The translations under genes and the position numbers were made by a program. Shown in pieces: positions 23,759 through 55,223 of a DNA stretch of 64,000 nucleotides. The DNA is from the human T2T-CHM13v2.0 reference genome, Homo sapiens. Location of the stretch: NCBI RefSeq assembly GCF_009914755.1, contig NC_060927.1. One strand, given 5' to 3'. The notes beneath the pieces are model-generated. The model was not told where the DNA came from, did no database searches, and saw nothing but the letters and a program-made list of their open reading frames with translations. How positions within the stretch are numbered: the stretch's first letter is position 1; the number at the start of each line of letters is the position of its first letter.

Positions 23759-23817
23759 CTGGTATGTGTTGTCGAAGCTGTCGTACATGAACCTCGTAAT
23801 CAGAGACGTCTTCCCGA
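23759..23817 (-). CDS. RAB6B: RAB6B coding exon 2 (59 nt; (V)GKTSLITRFMYDSFDNTYQ)
   Basis: Acceptor TTGTTTTGCAG/TC and donor CAG/GTGAGG; the peptide is visible inside ORF 23702..24073; completes GxxxxGKT. Confidence 0.97.
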
Positions 23818-41621: not shown

Positions 41622-43829
41622 ACCATCTCACAGTCAGGTTCCTAAGAGATGCAGCCTTTACTCTTTACTCCACCTCTGCCTTTTCTCCCACTGTGGTGAA
41701 CCGGGCTGATCACCTGGAACAAAACCTCACAGGTCTCTGCCTTGAGACTAAAGCGCTCCTAGCTGGCCTGGGCAGAGGCTGAGTCCTGCCTGTGTGCTTC
41801 ACTGGGCATCTGCATGCTGCTCTATCCAGTTCTCCCACATCACACCCAGCCCTCCCCCAGGCAGAGGTGGAAGGACCAGCAGACACAGCTGCCCAGGCCA
41901 CAACTCCAGCTGAGTGTGGTCTTCTTGCTACATGATAGAGGCAGGAGAGGAGCTGAGTTCTTCTGGCCCAACATCTGGGGTGCTATCCTCTTCTGATGAA
42001 GATGGGTGAGAGTCAGGGTCAGGTGGCTAGCTAGGTACCTCTTCAGGTCTCCAGTTCACTTCTAATCTGGGCAGCAGCCTGCAGTGTTTGGGTTGAATGT
42101 AGGGGAGGGAGGGGAATTTAATGAATCAGAATCAGGGGATAATTTCCAGATCTTGGTGCCACAAGTAGGATTTGCTAATATCCTTAAAATAATTTGGGAG
42201 TGGTTTCTCCCCCAAAAGAAACCCTTTGGAGGTTTGCTCTGTTCACAGAAGTGCAGAACCAAACAAAGATCACTAGTGCCAAGACCTGACTCTACTCACA
42301 GCAGCCCAGAGACAGTCTGGGAACTGCAGGGTCACAGTGAGGCAGAGCCAGACAGCCTTGGGGAGGAAGAGACAAAGCTCAGTCTGCTCCTCAAAGCCAG
42401 TGCTGGCAGCACAGAGGCAGTGTGCTGGAAAACACCCTCCCTCAACCTCCAAGGCAAGGTAACAGCCTTTCTCTCTTCTCATTTCCCCTGCTTTGCTGGG
42501 CTGGAGCTCCTCATCTTGTCCTCCACACAAACACAGAACTGGTCCATCGTCCTGTGCCCCCATACTCATCAGTGGCTCCATGGGAACCTCCAGCCTTTCA
42601 TTAAATTTGGTTAGGACCCTGGGATGGACAGCACCCTGCCCGGACCTTGACCCACCCTGGCTCCCAAGGGCCCTGTGCATGGCCAACAAGCCCCCATCTG
42701 TGTCTGGTAGGAAGCAGTGTCTGTGAGCCTCTCCCTTCGGTCTCAGCACTTCTATGGATCTCTCTTCCCCAGTGCCCCTTGCTTCCCCTGTTTGCCCTCT
42801 TAGCCCTCCTCTTTTACTGAACAGGGGAAAGAAACAAGAAATGTGTTCTAAGTGCCTCACTTACTGTTTAGTCTATGCAGTGTTTATTCCCCCCACTCAC
42901 AGACAGGGTCAGAAAAGAACATTTTCTCTTCCTTTCTCAGAATTAGCACAGCCACTCCCAGAGAGAAAGGTTTTCCTTATCTCTAGGGACTTGTCCCTGG
43001 TGCACAGGCCAAAGTTGCAGCTCTCCAATCCTGAGCCAAAATGGTCCTCCTCCTGCCTGCCCCAGGGTTGGGGGAAACAGAGGGACCAGAGGAGGCTGGA
43101 AGAGGTCAAAGCTGGGCTGTGTTGTTTGTGGCCCAGCCTTCCAAACCAGTTTTTCTCTGGGCCAGCTGCTTCAGGCAGAAGAGCCACCTCTGCTGAGCAC
43201 CAAGATGAGGGGGCAGCTCTCCTTACCCACCCTGAACTCACAACCTGGCACTGCTCAAAGAGGCCAAGGGTGGTGACTGAAAAATGCTGTAATCATTGAT
43301 GCTGCAAAATTAGGATTACTCCATGCACCAGCTACACTGGCAAAGGAATACCAAGGTGGTGCTCAGTAACGTCCAGTGGGCACTGCCTATGCAGAAGAAC
43401 AGGAAGGGCAGGGAGCAAAAGTCATCAGGCCTTTAGAGGGTGGGGTTTCAAAACTTAAAGCAGATCATGAGCTGACCCGTGAGCAGGGGGGTGCACCAAT
43501 TGACCTGAACAGGCTGCCTTCTCTGGGTTAGGGGAGGGTTCAAAACGGCAGTGTCTGCCTCTACTCTGGCCCCTTGGCTTTCAGCCTTAGCTTTTTGTGC
43601 AGCCAGCTTAAGATGGGTCTCTGTTCTCCAAGGCATGGAAAGGGGCACTCCCTTCTACAATGCTGCTCTCTCTCAAGTCCTTGGGGACTCCGGAGCTTGC
43701 TGGGGTGATGGAACCCAGCAGACAGGCATAGGGGAAAATATCCAAGAAAGCAAAGGAAGTGATCAAGTGTCCACTGGAAGAGAAGTCCAGTGAGACAGGG
43801 AGGGACAGGAAGCTGCATAACAGGGCTAG

Positions 43830-44720
43830 GGGGCCTCATATAACTAATGACCAGAGGACGGGGGTGCTCACACACCCAGTGCCCAGAGGACAGGACACAA
43901 ACACACCTAATGACAGAGAATGGAGGACTCACATACCCAGTGCCCAAAGGACAGGGGGCCCCACATATCCCAGTAACCAGAGGATGAGGGGCTCACACAC
44001 CAATGATCAGAGGATGGGGGGCTCACACACCAATGATCAAAGGACGGGGGATTCACACACCAAATAATCAGAGGACGGGGGGGCTTATATATCCCAATAA
44101 CCAGAGGATGGGGGGCTCACACACCAATGATGAGAGGACGGGGGACTCACACACCAAATAACCAGAGGACGGCGGGGCTCATATATCCCAATAACCAGAG
44201 GATGGGGGGCTCACACACCAATGATCAGAGAATGGGGAACTCACACACCAAATGACCAGAGGATGGGGGACTCACACACCCAATGACCAGAGGATGGGGA
44301 ACTCACACATCCAATGGCTAGAGGATGGGCTGCTCACACACCAATGATCAGAGGACAAGGGGCTCACACATCCAACAGCCAGAGGATGGGCTGCTCGCAC
44401 ACTAATGATTAGAGGACGGGAACTCACACACCCAATGACCAGAGGAGGGAGGGCTCACATACCCAATGACCAGAGTATAGGGGACTCACACACCTAATGA
44501 CCAGAGGACGGGGGACTCACACACCCAATGACCAGAGGACGGGGGACTCACACATCCAATGGCCAGAGGATGGGCTGCTCACACACTAATGATCAGAGGA
44601 CGGGAACTCACATACCCAGTGACCAGAGGACAGAGGACTTACACACCCAATGACCAGAGGATGGGGGACTCACACATCCAATGACCAGAGGATAGGGGAG
44701 CTCACACACCCAATGGCCAG
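43830..44720 (+). repeat. Minisatellite/VNTR, ~30-31 bp unit (consensus about CACACACCCAATGACCAGAGGAYGGGGGRCT), ~29 copies
   Basis: Tandem units are directly visible; ORF 43759..44067 shows the periodic HTNDQRMGGS; left-hand units are more degenerate. Confidence 0.95.
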
Positions 44721-44745
44721 TTTCTGGTCATATGCCACATCCAAC
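44710..44745 (-). CDS. RAB6B: Candidate alternative RAB6B exon: either a 36-nt in-frame cassette (GWMWHMTRNWPL) or an alternative start (MWHMTRNWPL, ATG at 44740)
   Basis: Pyrimidine tract CTCCTCCCTCTCTGCTACCTGCTCAG/, then GTTGG ATG TGG CAT ATG ACC AGA AAC TGG CCA TTG G/GTGTGT. It ends in phase 1, as exon 1 does, so it joins exon 2 in frame. Confidence 0.5.
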
Positions 44746-47329
44746 CTGAGCAGGTAGCAGAGAGGGAGGAGTCCGGAAGGGCTGCCAGCAGTCCCGCAGA
44801 ACACCCATGGAAGGCCAGAGCAGTCAGGGAACCCAGGGCACTGTGGAGATAGGATGGACAGGGGAGCTTAAAGGGGCTAGCTTTGGTCCATCTGCGTACA
44901 GTGTGGCCTTGCAGAGAGAGACAATAGTCCCTCCCCTACAATCCTTCATTGTTCCTGAGGCCTCATTCTAAGAGAAAGAATCAAGAAAATATACATCTGC
45001 AGTGGAGCTGAGCTTCAGAACTGGAAGGAAGCTTAAGTTTACAAGCCCTCTCTATAAATTCCATCCTCGGAACGTTTCTGTTCTGACCTAGTTCAGCCAC
45101 CTGGATCTCCTGCCTCCAATCAGAACACATTCTGCCTTCACCTTCTAATCCATGAGCATGTCCCTCTGGGTCAAAACTCCCCAGTGGATCCCCACTGCCT
45201 GCAGGGAGGTCCTCCAGGGCCTGACCCTACTGACTCCCCCAGGCTCAACCCCTTCTCCCCCACTATTTCTCCACCCGCACCAGAATCCCACCACCCTGAA
45301 CCACACCCGATTCCCCAGAAACCCCAAGCCTTTCACTGCCTGGGCATGGTCAGGCCCTCTGCCCTCAGTGCCTCCCCTTCTTTGCTGGTGAGTTCCTGCT
45401 CACTATGCAAAACCTCCTCCAGAAAGCCTTCCCTGACTCCTCCAAGCACATCACGCCCATAGCCTTGCTTGTGTATGTAATACTAATCTTAATACTGGCT
45501 GAGATTTGTTGCCTGCTTATTGTGGGCCAAGTACTACCGACCTCACACATCTGAAGGCATATAACCCCAATGCTGCAAAGCCTCTGCCCTTATACTCCAC
45601 CCTGGCTGAGCTCCTTACAGGAAGTAACGGAGCTGTGAAGATGAGGTACTCTTCCCCTGAGCAGGTTTGGTGGCCCCAGAGGAGCAGGCATGGTGAGTCT
45701 GTCCCACTTTTTGCCAGCCTGTCTCTGAGCAGGGATGGGGAGCTGGGGAAAACACTGGCCAGGGAGTCAAAGGGTCCTTCCATCTGTGTAAAAGCCTTCA
45801 CCTGGCAGACCTTCGCTTTCTTTATAAAATGGGATGAGCAGCTCTTCCTGCCAGATCACGAGGATGTAGACCCCACAGTTCACAATACAGAAATGATCAA
45901 TGATTCTCAAAATCTCGCACCCTACTTCTGCAATGAGGGAGGAGATGGAGATTGCTGTTACTATTTCATTAACAAAATTACCTATCACCTGAGCTTTTAT
46001 CATGTGAGCCTTAATCACATGCCATGTATAGATGTACTTGATCTTCCTGGAACCCCAACAAGGTAATGATCAACTTCCTGCACAGGTGAGGAAAATGAGC
46101 ACAGGTGGTGCCATTGCACACCAACACCATCCATTCAGCAGAGGGGTGGGCTGAGGTGGAAGCCCAGGATGCAGGAGGACCAATATGGTGATGGGGTGGG
46201 GGTGGGAGCTGGGGCTGGGGCCGGGTCTCTAAGCCCTCCTAGGTCTGCTGGGGACACCATATACCCCTCTTGGCTCTGTCCTTTCCCTGCCCTCCCAGCT
46301 TACCCCTCCCACCAGGCTGTGGAAAGGGGTGCCCCTGGGCTAGGAGCACCTGGGAGGTGTCACCTGCCCTGTCGTCCTAATCATGGTTCCTCTCTGTGTG
46401 GAAGACACACCTCCTGGAAGCAGAAGTGCAGGATAGCCCCATCCTTGTTGCTTGGCAACCAGAGCCAAGCACATCTTCAGAAGAAGGGAGCCAGCATGCC
46501 CCTCCCCCACATTGTGCCCCCAGGGAGGGTTGCACTCAGGTGTAGGGGGCCAGGAATGCCTCCCAGGAGAGGAGGTGGTAGGCTGGAGAAGATCCTGCAT
46601 GTGGGACCCAGGACAGTTCTGGGGGCAACAGTCGCAGAGCCCCTGATCCCCCATCTCACTCCTGCAGCCCCTCTCACCAGCAGCATGCTTGTCTCCAGGC
46701 TGGGAGTGTTATTGGCTTGGCCTCATACTCAGAGCTGGCACTGAATTGCAGAACCAGAGTTAGAGCTCCACTGGCCCAAGGGGTCACCCAGCCCAGTAGC
46801 CTTGAGGGGATACACGGAGAAAGCCAGAGATGGGCTGGGGCTTATCCAACATACAGCCAGCCAGTGACAGACCGGGAATAGAATCAGGGTCTTCAGGGCC
46901 CTGGTATCTCCAAGCCAGAAGGGAGGATGTGGCCAGGAAAGGGTTACCCCAGAGTAGGTGGGAACCAGCCATTTAGTTTAATTGGTTCTTCCCTGGTTAG
47001 TAATTAGTTCTCAGCTAGAACCATGGCAGTGGGCTGAGGGCTGACTTGGGAGGGATTTAGCTGCCCCCATAGGCTCTATCAACTCCCTTCAAAGCACCAC
47101 AAATGGAAGAACAGGGTGCCTGCTGTGCAAGACCAGCTCCAGCAGCTCCCACACGGAGACCCTGCTTCCCTCCTCCCTGCTCAGGGCCCCGCAGGTTCCT
47201 CTTTAGCAAAGAGCTTGGCACAAACACTCCCCACGAGTCATGCACAGCAGACCTCGTGTCCAGAAGACCTCAGTGTTCTTCTGTCTCCTCCGCTCCAGTC
47301 CTAGGCCAGAAGCTGCCTTTGAGGCAAGA

Positions 47330-54551: not shown

Positions 54552-55223
<672 letters not shown>

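What the first reader, a model, noticed from the sequence alone, without database searches (positions are those of the whole stretch)
44700..44845. Minisatellite-born alternative exon that would rewrite the RAB6B P-loop
Seen: on the gene strand, a pyrimidine tract + CAG (AG at 44747-44746) precedes GTTGG ATG TGG CAT ATG ACC AGA AAC TGG CCA TTG G, then GTGTGT. The donor (GT at 44709-44708) lies inside the first VNTR unit and is phase 1, like exon 1. There are three possible outcomes. (a) A 36-nt cassette (44745-44710) between exons 1 and 2 inserts GWMWHMTRNWPL into GEQS|VGKT with no stop. (b) Initiation at ATG 44740 gives MWHMTRNWPL-VGKT..., 13 aa shorter than canonical and lacking beta-1 and the first half of the G1 box. 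(c) A second acceptor (TCCTATCTCCACAG/, exon start 44840, 131 nt) puts a TGA in the exon-1 frame. Established: GxxxxGKT/S is required for nucleotide binding. Inference: the products would be nucleotide-binding-defective or NMD targets, giving a dial on RAB6B dose. I have an unverified recollection of a curated shorter RAB6B isoform with an alternative N-terminus, so the exon itself may already be annotated; its VNTR-supplied donor is the point of interest.
Basis: partly seen in the sequence, partly recalled or inferred. Interest (0 to 1): 0.8.

Follow-up and report, generated by a model that had tools for sequence, protein, structure and literature searches.

The report
Known RAB6B exon with repeat-derived donor
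An already annotated alternative exon in the first intron of human RAB6B takes both its downstream start codon and its splice donor from the edge of a 31-base tandem repeat, and including it most likely gives a transcript marked for decay or a crippled protein, which is an ordinary by-product of splicing.

Summary
On the gene (minus) strand, RAB6B intron 1 contains a 131-nt exon (44840-44710) with a strong acceptor and a weak TGG|GTGTGT donor. RefSeq already lists exactly this exon in a second transcript.

- **Repeat origin:** The donor lies 11 nt inside a 31-bp x 28 tandem array (43843-44720). I add that the 31 nt upstream (44743-44713), which carry the short isoform's ATG, are a degenerate further unit in register. 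Start codon and donor are therefore two variants of the same repeat motif, one period apart.
- **Canonical frame:** From the canonical ATG the exon gives a TGA after 28 codons, 114 nt before the next junction. That predicts an NMD substrate.
- **Short isoform:** ATG 44740 is the third ATG, in poor context. Its product would lack beta-1 and the first P-loop glycine.
- **36-nt cassette:** This is hypothetical and is not in the gene table.
- **Dose dial:** Nothing shows that the array varies in copy number or tunes inclusion. Its units are only 76-80% alike.

I found no paper on the exon or the array. Junction use, expression and conservation could not be tested here.

Verdict: a known exon and ordinary unproductive splicing, with a neat repeat-derived anatomy. 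Interest is low.

The parts
44710..44840 (-). Alternative internal exon ('exon 1b', 131 nt) of RAB6B, between exon 1 and exon 2
   Evidence: The hub's RefSeq table lists exon 44710-44840 in another transcript. AG and GT boundaries were read.
44841..44870 (-). Acceptor of the 131-nt exon: pyrimidine-rich tract ending CACAG
   Evidence: Simple acceptor score 15; 52 of 2356 intron-1 AGs score as well or better.
44746..44775 (-). Internal candidate acceptor (CTCTGCTACCTGCTCAG) that would give the hypothetical 36-nt cassette 44745-44710
   Evidence: Score 16; 22 of 2356 AGs score as well or better. One of 3 microexon-like candidates among 2349 AGs. Not in the hub's gene table.
44701..44709 (-). Intronic half of the donor (GTGTGTGAG) after exon end TGG, inside the first unit of the array
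   Evidence: Weight-matrix score 1.35 bits, against 5.5 and 7.0 for exons 1 and 2. U1 duplex -6.7 kcal/mol, against -10.7 and -11.6.
44824..44826 (-). TGA in the canonical (exon 1) reading frame. It comes after 28 codons, 114 nt upstream of the exon 1b/exon 2 junction.
44806..44808 (-). Second ATG of the alternative mRNA. It opens a 26-codon ORF that stops at 44730-44728 and so overlaps ATG 44740.
44738..44740 (-). Third ATG (context GGTTGGATGT: T at -3, T at +4). It is in frame with exon 2 and would start the 13-residue-shorter isoform.
44713..44743 (-). Degenerate 'unit 0' of the array, exactly one period upstream of unit 1. It carries ATG 44740.
   Evidence: 19 of 31 bases are identical, ungapped and in register, to unit 44680-44650. 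Only 3 of 29756 31-mers of intron 1 outside the array reach 19.
43843..44720 (.). Tandem array: 31-bp unit, about 28 copies, with higher-order periods 94 and 184. The gene-strand unit contains TGG[G/A]TGTGTGAG.
   Evidence: Within the whole assembly it matches only itself. The identical 9-mer TGGGTGTGT occurs at 6 units.
54566..54635 (-). Coding part of exon 1: residues 1-23, ending GEQS plus one base (phase 1)
   Evidence: It matches the N-terminus of Rab-6A and Rab-6B chains in the PDB.
23759..23817 (-). Exon 2, which begins with the second half of the P-loop (VGKT)
   Evidence: and the hub's gene table.

Best explanation
This is the already annotated alternative internal exon of RAB6B (131 nt, 44840-44710, minus strand).

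Anatomy. The last 34 nt of the exon are built from the proximal, degenerate edge of an intronic 31-bp tandem array. The repeat motif TGG[A/G]TGTG supplies the ATG in a decayed 'unit 0' (TGGATGTG). One period later, in unit 1, it supplies the GT donor (TGG|GTGTG).

How it is spliced (inferred). A good single-copy acceptor upstream pairs by exon definition with the first donor-like motif of the array. That donor is weak, so inclusion should be low.

Fate of the mRNA (inferred). Ribosomes starting at the canonical, well-placed ATG stop after 28 codons at TGA 44826-44824, 114 nt before the next exon junction. The transcript is therefore mainly an unproductive, NMD-prone by-product. Only ribosomes that re-initiate or leak past two upstream ATGs would make the 13-residue-shorter protein. 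That protein lacks strand beta-1 and the first glycine of the GxxxxGKT loop, so it is unlikely to fold or to bind nucleotide.

Shown versus inferred. The anatomy, the frames, the repeat origin and the annotation are shown. Low inclusion, NMD and loss of function are inferred.
For: - **Annotation:** The exon's coordinates equal the RefSeq exon in the hub's table.
- **Array and donor:** One search gives the array and shows the donor inside it.
- **Unit 0:** It is in register with 19 of 31 identities. Only 3 of 29756 background 31-mers do as well.
- **Motif recurrence:** The ATG variant occurs at 5 places (44740, 44677, 44555, 44371, 44310). The GT variant occurs at 6 places (44712, 44649, 44527, 44434, 44282, 43878).
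- **Site strength:** The donor is weak and the acceptor strong.
- **Only usable donor:** In the ATG-44740 frame a TGA (44704-44702) follows the donor at once. No later unit's donor can therefore give an open frame.
- **Premature stop:** The stop is 114 nt upstream of a junction. This meets the 50-55 nt NMD rule, which is established knowledge that I recalled.
- **Start codons:** The canonical ATG has A at -3, whereas ATG 44740 has T at -3 and T at +4 and is the third in line. The ORF from the second ATG overlaps it.
- **What is lost:** Exon 1 residues 1-23 match Rab-6A and Rab-6B chains in the PDB. All 7 matched sequences cover query residues 8-23 in the alignment, and the crystallised constructs start within residues 1-8. 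This fits that stretch belonging to the folded core.
Against: - No expression or junction data could be consulted, so low inclusion and NMD are inferences.
- My splice scores use recalled frequencies and a home-made acceptor score, not MaxEntScan or SpliceAI.
- As far as I recall (unverified), RefSeq annotates the second transcript as coding. That would mean curators accepted the downstream ATG.
- A melanoma study names RAB6B as the top isoform switch between nevi and melanoma. ENST00000486858.5 goes up and ENST00000285208.9 goes down. If the former is the exon-1b transcript, which I could not verify, inclusion is regulated and can be substantial.
- The 83 nt between the short upstream ORF's stop and ATG 44740 would allow some re-initiation.
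Confidence: 0.6

Rival explanations
1. The short isoform is really made from ATG 44740 and has a role of its own. One example would be a nucleotide-free or unstable Rab6B that sequesters a GEF, an effector or the prenylation machinery in a dominant-negative way.
For: The frame from ATG 44740 into exon 2 is open and keeps VGKT and everything downstream. Only the first-unit donor preserves this frame. The 83-nt gap after the 28-codon upstream ORF allows re-initiation. As I recall, unverified, databases list a coding isoform 2.
Against: ATG 44740 is the third ATG, has no purine at -3 and no G at +4, and is overlapped by the ORF of the second ATG. The product lacks the residues that align to Rab6 1-23, including the first P-loop glycine. 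No paper mentions the peptide or the recalled accessions (0 papers).
Confidence: 0.12
2. The array is a regulatory module, the first reader's 'dial'. Either its copy number or sequence variants set how often exon 1b is included and hence the RAB6B dose, or proteins do so by binding its GU-rich and pyrimidine-rich units. By recall, such proteins would include TDP-43, CELF or PTB types.
For: The donor is part of the array. 17 of the 38 GTGTGT hexamers of the 30.7-kb intron lie in the 981 nt from 43780 to 44760, directly downstream of the donor. Five further identical donor 9-mers could act as decoys. A possible isoform switch has been reported in melanoma.
Against: No evidence of copy-number polymorphism; only one haplotype was seen. 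Units are only 76-80% alike, and by recalled general knowledge this goes with low instability. Searches for RAB6B with VNTR (0 papers), tandem repeat (8 papers, none on this by title or abstract), cryptic exon (2) and TDP-43 plus splicing (7) gave nothing on this exon. The GU runs are short, three dinucleotides each.
Confidence: 0.1
3. The internal acceptor at 44747-44746 is used in neurons to give a 36-nt in-frame microexon. This would insert 12 residues into the P-loop.
For: The 36 nt are open in frame. The acceptor has a strong pyrimidine tract, with 22 of 2356 AGs as good. It also has two TGC motifs and a CTCT run just upstream, features I recall for SRRM4-dependent microexons. Only 3 of 2349 AGs in intron 1 meet my ad hoc criteria.
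Against: It is not in the hub's RefSeq table. My criteria are recalled and home-made, and two other intron-1 sites meet them too. The donor is weak. A 12-residue insert between GEQS and VGKT would break the nucleotide-binding loop, so there is no obvious selective reason.
Confidence: 0.04

Closest known systems
RefSeq's second RAB6B transcript (exons 54566-55016 and 44710-44840 in the hub's table)
   Same: It is the same exon with the same boundaries. The finding's options (b) and (c) are two readings of this one mRNA.
   Different: Nothing differs in the sequence. The hub's table does not say whether the transcript is annotated as coding. My recollection of an 'isoform 2' with an alternative N-terminus is unverified, and 0 papers hold the recalled accessions. 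The repeat origin of the donor and the ATG is not in any paper I could find.
Poison (NMD-coupled) cassette exons, for example in SR-protein genes or SCN1A exon 20N (recalled)
   Same: Inclusion puts a stop codon in the main frame more than 55 nt upstream of a later junction.
   Different: Classic poison exons are highly conserved and demonstrably regulated. Here conservation, regulation and NMD sensitivity are untested, and the donor is weak.
Repeat-derived exonization: Alu and SVA exonization (recalled), and exonization of the C9ORF72 repeat by aberrant splicing (PMC10680656, seen only as search listing and start of abstract)
   Same: A splice site supplied by repetitive DNA inside an intron creates a new exon end.
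   Different: The source here is a local, single-locus 31-bp tandem array, not a transposon or an expanded disease repeat. Only the edge of the array is exonized.
Latent intronic 5' splice sites preceded by in-frame stops (PMC3510495, abstract start in listing and one passage)
   Same: Consensus-like donors abound in introns and their use gives prematurely terminated mRNAs. That paper's heat-shock table even lists a RAB6B site.
   Different: Their RAB6B site (chr3:135041993 in their build) was not mapped to this window and is probably in another intron. Their events extend an upstream exon, whereas this one is a separate cassette exon.
Rab6 P-loop mutants such as T27N (recalled)
   Same: Both alter the G1 loop (GEQSVGKT, residues 20-27 by counting) and are expected to impair nucleotide binding.
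   Different: T27N is a point change in a folded protein. The short isoform replaces 23 residues including beta-1, so misfolding is more likely than a clean dominant-negative state.

Membership tests
Annotated RAB6B alternative exon | Coordinates coincide with an exon of a curated or predicted transcript | tested here: met
   The hub's RefSeq table lists 44710-44840. The AG and GT boundaries sit at exactly these places.
Poison (NMD-coupled) cassette exon | Inclusion introduces a premature stop in the main reading frame | tested here: met
   TGA 44826-44824 after 28 codons.
Poison (NMD-coupled) cassette exon | The stop lies more than 50-55 nt upstream of a downstream exon junction | tested here: met
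   114 nt to the exon 1b/exon 2 junction. The rule itself is recalled.
Poison (NMD-coupled) cassette exon | The isoform rises when NMD is blocked, and inclusion is regulated | not testable with these tools
   No expression data here. The only hint is an isoform switch in melanoma for a transcript whose exon structure I could not see.
Repeat-derived exonization | The splice site lies inside a repeat and the same motif recurs in other copies | tested here: met
   The donor is 11-12 nt inside the array. The identical 9-mer occurs at 6 units. The ATG-bearing unit 0 is in register.
Repeat-derived exonization | The repeat predates the exon (order of events) | not testable with these tools
   No other primate or mammalian genome is held. 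The first unit could equally be the seed from which the array grew.
VNTR / minisatellite | Head-to-tail array of units of about 10-100 bp | tested here: met
   Period 31, 28.3 copies, 76% matches.
VNTR / minisatellite | Copy number varies between individuals | not testable with these tools
   Only one haplotype was seen. 0 papers hold both RAB6B and VNTR.
Functional Rab GTPase (for the short isoform) | Intact G1 loop GxxxxGK[ST] | tested here: not met
   The eight residues ending in GKT read NWPLVGKT instead of GEQSVGKT. The first glycine is lost.
Functional Rab GTPase (for the short isoform) | Complete GTPase fold including strand beta-1 | not tested
   The spliced protein could not be handed to the fold tools, because it is a joined sequence and exons 5-8 lie outside the window. 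Loss of beta-1 is inferred from replacement of residues 1-23.
SRRM4-type neuronal microexon (for the 36-nt cassette) | Length up to about 51 nt, in frame, with UGC and UC-rich motifs just upstream of the AG | tested here: met
   36 nt and open in frame. The motifs are present, and 3 of 2349 AGs meet the criteria. The criteria are recalled.
SRRM4-type neuronal microexon (for the 36-nt cassette) | Observed junctions, neuron-specific inclusion | not testable with these tools
   It is not in the hub's gene table, and no RNA data are available here.

The most novel reading that the evidence does not exclude
The 31-bp array both created exon 1b and controls it. Its motif supplies the start codon and the only frame-compatible donor. 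Its 17 GU hexamers and five decoy donors just downstream form a binding platform for GU-binding splicing repressors. Loss of such a repressor, or alleles with different unit number or sequence, would then switch neuronal or melanocytic RAB6B from the productive mRNA to an NMD-prone, P-loop-less one. That would make this a repeat-encoded dose switch for a Golgi Rab.
Probability: 0.07. Interest if true: 0.55.

Novelty: already known. Interest (0 to 1): 0.2.

Why it matters
As it stands it matters little, because the exon is annotated and its most likely fate is unproductive splicing. It is a tidy example of how the decaying edge of a tandem array can supply a start codon and a splice donor one repeat period apart. 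It is also a concrete, testable locus for asking whether intronic tandem repeats modulate splicing of their host gene.

It would matter more in two cases:
- Array alleles or GU-binding proteins shift exon-1b inclusion.
- The RAB6B isoform switch reported in melanoma (PMC8268681) involves this exon.

Tried and rejected

- RAB6B with VNTR: 0 papers.
- RAB6B with cryptic exon: 2 papers.
- RAB6B with tandem repeat: 8 papers.
- RAB6B with isoform 2: 5 papers.
- RAB6B with TDP-43 and splicing: 7 papers, 6 listed.
- RAB6B with nonsense-mediated: 9 papers.
- The peptide plus three recalled accessions: 0 papers.
- Tandem repeat, exonization, splice donor and intronic: 568 papers, 20 listed, none specific.
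- RAB6B with alternative splicing and exon: 19 papers, 18 listed.
- ENST00000486858: 1 paper.

By title and abstract, none deals with this exon or array.

**Passages read that did not bear on it.**
- PMC9732337: large duplications spanning RAB6B.
- PMC4798961: nELAVL binding to the 3'UTR.
- PMC13341655: an intronic SNP.
- PMC1249572: a pig BAC map.

Supplements of other papers, and catalogues of tandem-repeat or splicing QTLs, were not seen and may hold this locus.

**RNA structure around the donor.** A 9-nt inverted repeat brackets it. The 71-nt fold is no better than shuffles (z 0.78; 159 of 200 shuffles fold at least as well), so I rejected it.

**Other negative checks.**
- Rfam: one match at E 0.45, below its gathering score, outside the array.
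- ORFs: none of 60 codons or more inside the array.
- Transposon origin of the exon body and acceptor: no other copy in the assembly at BLAST sensitivity. Old repeats could be missed.
- Stronger donors inside the array: 4 sites score above 2 bits, and all lie behind stops in the ATG-44740 frame.

**Steps not taken.**
- Folding the short isoform, because a spliced protein is a joined sequence and half the gene lies outside the window.
- MaxEntScan or SpliceAI scoring, because the models are not available.
Full report
**1. What is in the sequence**

I read the minus (gene) strand of window 44400-45100 and rebuilt the transcripts from the hub's exon coordinates in a script.
- A pyrimidine-rich tract ending CACAG precedes an exon that starts at 44840.
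- A second tract, CTCTGCTACCTGCTCAG, ends at AG 44747-44746.
- The exon ends ...CCATTGG at 44710 and is followed by GTGTGTGAG.
- The coding part of exon 1 is 70 nt (phase 1). ATG 44740 to 44710 is 31 nt (phase 1), so it joins exon 2 in frame.
- Exon 2 begins with the second half of the P-loop (VGKT).

The hub's RefSeq table lists an exon 44710-44840 in a second RAB6B transcript whose first exon is 54566-55016. The 131-nt exon is therefore already annotated. Outcome (a), the 36-nt cassette, is not in the table.

**2. The tandem array**

Tandem Repeats Finder reports one array at 43846-44720 with period 31, 28.3 copies, 76% matches, 3% indels and score 852. It also scores as periods 94 (79%) and 184 (from 43843, 80%, score 1004), so it has higher-order structure.
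- It is the only array of score 150 or more in the 64-kb window.
- A search of the window's own assembly with 44560-44900 found 7 matches, all inside this array region of chr3. The array and the exon are therefore single-locus at that sensitivity.
- A second search with 44721-45460 found only the locus itself plus two 38-50-nt matches to 45411-45459. The acceptor and exon body are not an obvious repeat copy.

The donor GT (44709-44708) lies 11-12 nt inside the array's first unit.

**3. The repeat reaches further into the exon**

Laying the gene strand out in 31-nt steps shows that 44743-44713 is in exact register with the array. This stretch carries ATG 44740.
- It shares 19 of 31 bases, ungapped, with unit 44680-44650. 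The matches cluster at both ends: TGGATGTG at the 5' end and CTGG.CAT at the 3' end.
- Among 29756 31-mers of intron 1 outside the array, only 3 reach 19 identities.

I read this as a decayed 'unit 0'.

The motif TGGATGTG, which holds the ATG, recurs at 44677, 44555, 44371 and 44310. The motif TGGGTGTG, which holds the donor, recurs at 44649, 44527, 44434, 44282 and 43878. The short isoform's start codon and its donor are therefore two variants of one repeat motif, exactly one period apart. The 31 isoform-specific coding bases equal one repeat unit.

I could not tell whether the array came first or grew out of this seed, because no outgroup genome was available.

**4. Strength of the sites**

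I used a position-weight matrix whose frequencies I recalled, so the numbers are crude.
- **Donor score:** The donor TGG|GTGTGT scores 1.35 bits, against 5.5 (exon 1) and 7.0 (exon 2). 148 of 1793 GTs in intron 1 score as well or better.
- **U1 pairing:** Its duplex with the U1 5' end is -6.7 kcal/mol, against -10.7 and -11.6.
- **Acceptors:** By a simple home-made score, 52 of 2356 AGs are as good as the 44840 site and 22 of 2356 as good as the 44745 site. Both sites fall in the range of RAB6B's real acceptors (12-16).
- **Background:** 44 acceptor-donor pairs spaced 50-250 nt in intron 1 are at least as good on both sides.

From sequence alone this would be one pseudo-exon among many. The annotation is what says it is used.

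Six units carry the identical donor 9-mer. Choice of the first unit fits exon definition from the nearby strong acceptor, which is an inference.

**5. Coding consequences**

- **Canonical ATG:** It has A at -3. From it the 131-nt exon gives a TGA at 44826-44824 after 28 codons, 114 nt upstream of the exon 1b/exon 2 junction. By the recalled 50-55 nt rule this marks the mRNA for nonsense-mediated decay.
- **Second ATG:** ATG 44808 opens a 26-codon ORF that stops at 44730-44728 and so overlaps the third ATG.
- **Third ATG:** ATG 44740 has T at -3 and T at +4. It gives a 10-residue N-terminus, MWHMTRNWPL, joined to exon 2. This replaces 23 residues, so the product is 13 shorter.
- **P-loop:** GEQSVGKT becomes NWPLVGKT, so the first glycine of GxxxxGK[ST] is lost.
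- **What the replaced residues are:** They align to the N-terminus of Rab-6A and Rab-6B chains in the PDB. Of the 7 distinct sequences matched, all cover query residues 8-23, and the constructs start within residues 1-8. Loss of strand beta-1 is inferred from established knowledge of the small-GTPase fold.
- **Later donors:** In the ATG-44740 frame a TGA (44704-44702) follows the donor immediately, so no later unit's donor could give an open frame. The 4 array donors scoring above 2 bits all lie behind stops.
- **36-nt cassette:** It is open in frame and would insert 12 residues between GEQS and VGKT.

**6. Most likely mechanism**

I commit to unproductive splicing with confidence 0.6.
- The exon is included at a low level because the donor is weak.
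- Most ribosomes start at the canonical ATG and terminate early.
- The mRNA is then degraded.
- The short protein would need leaky scanning past two ATGs, or re-initiation 83 nt after the short upstream ORF. If made, it would probably not fold or bind nucleotide.

The anatomy and frames are shown. Inclusion level, decay and protein fate are inferred.

**7. Rivals**

- **A functional short isoform (0.12).** The frame is open, and only the first donor preserves it. The start context and the lost core residues speak against it.
- **The array as a dial (0.10).** 17 of the intron's 38 GTGTGT hexamers lie in the 981 nt from 43780 to 44760, just downstream of the donor. They could bind GU-binding splicing factors, which is a recalled idea. 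There is no evidence of copy-number variation, the units are only 76-80% alike, and no paper links RAB6B splicing to TDP-43 or to a repeat.
- **A 36-nt neuronal microexon (0.04).** The acceptor has TGC and CTCT motifs that I recall as typical. However, 3 of 2349 intron-1 AGs pass my ad hoc filter, and the cassette is not annotated.

**8. Literature**

By title or abstract, none returned a paper on this exon or this array. The peptide and three recalled accessions occur in 0 papers.

Two leads are worth recording.
- **PMC8268681** (passages, supplement passages). It ranks RAB6B first among isoform switches between nevi and melanomas (q = 2e-14). ENST00000486858.5 goes up and ENST00000285208.9 goes down, labelled 'intron retention loss'. 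The paper does not give the exon structure, so I cannot say whether this is the exon-1b transcript.
- **PMC3510495** (one passage). It lists a latent RAB6B donor at chr3:135041993 in its own build, activated 1.59-fold by heat shock. I did not map this site, and by rough reckoning from recalled coordinates it lies in another intron.

Supplements of tandem-repeat and splicing-QTL catalogues were not seen and could hold this locus.

**9. Comparison with what is known, and novelty**

The feature is a member of known kinds: an annotated alternative exon, a PTC-introducing ('poison'-type) cassette by sequence criteria, and a repeat-derived exon end. Its defining sequence features were met. NMD sensitivity, regulation, conservation and copy-number variability could not be tested here.

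The short isoform fails the G1-loop criterion of a functional Rab. The exon itself is already known. The repeat origin of both the ATG and the donor seems not to be in print, as far as my searches reach, but it is descriptive detail.

**10. Other checks**

- The 9-nt inverted repeat bracketing the donor gives no fold better than shuffles.
- There is no Rfam family.
- There is no ORF of 60 codons or more in the array.
- GC is 0.53-0.57 across the array.

**Verdict.** This is a known exon and probably ordinary unproductive splicing. Interest is 0.2. The boldest reading left open is a repeat-encoded splicing switch for RAB6B dose, with probability about 0.07.

Noticed in passing
window 44681-44689 and 44723-44731: A perfect 9-nt inverted repeat brackets the exon-1b donor with 33 nt between the arms (ATGACCAGA in the exon, TCTGGTCAT in the first array unit). 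Many other units carry the same or a closely similar second arm. The 71-nt RNA fold is no more stable than shuffles (z 0.78).
   Followed up: yes
RAB6B transcripts as a whole (window 459-55051): PMC8268681 ranks RAB6B first among isoform switches between melanocytic nevi and melanomas. ENST00000486858.5 goes up and ENST00000285208.9 goes down, labelled 'intron retention loss'. The exon structure of the up-regulated transcript is not given, so its relation to exon 1b is open.
   Followed up: partly
RAB6B, not mapped to window coordinates (chr3:135041993 in the paper's own build): PMC3510495 lists a latent intronic 5' splice site of RAB6B that is activated 1.59-fold by heat shock. It is probably in a different intron from the finding.
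   Followed up: no
window 45411-45459: A stretch about 570 nt upstream of the exon-1b acceptor has short matches elsewhere in the assembly: chr3 near 8.73 Mb (97% over 38 nt) and chr19 near 5.30 Mb (86% over 48-50 nt). It looks like a piece of an old interspersed repeat. The family was not identified.
   Followed up: partly
window 44900-45600: GC skew on the plus strand drops to between -0.23 and -0.43, so the gene strand is G-rich. It has many GGGG/GGAGG runs just upstream of exon 1b. I assigned no function.
   Followed up: no
RAB6B intron (rs140798517, position 133878284 as printed in the paper; not mapped to the window): PMC13341655 reports this intronic RAB6B SNP as a new prostate-cancer locus in a Taiwanese cohort, with a very large odds ratio (216). 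Its relation to the exon or the array is unknown.
   Followed up: no
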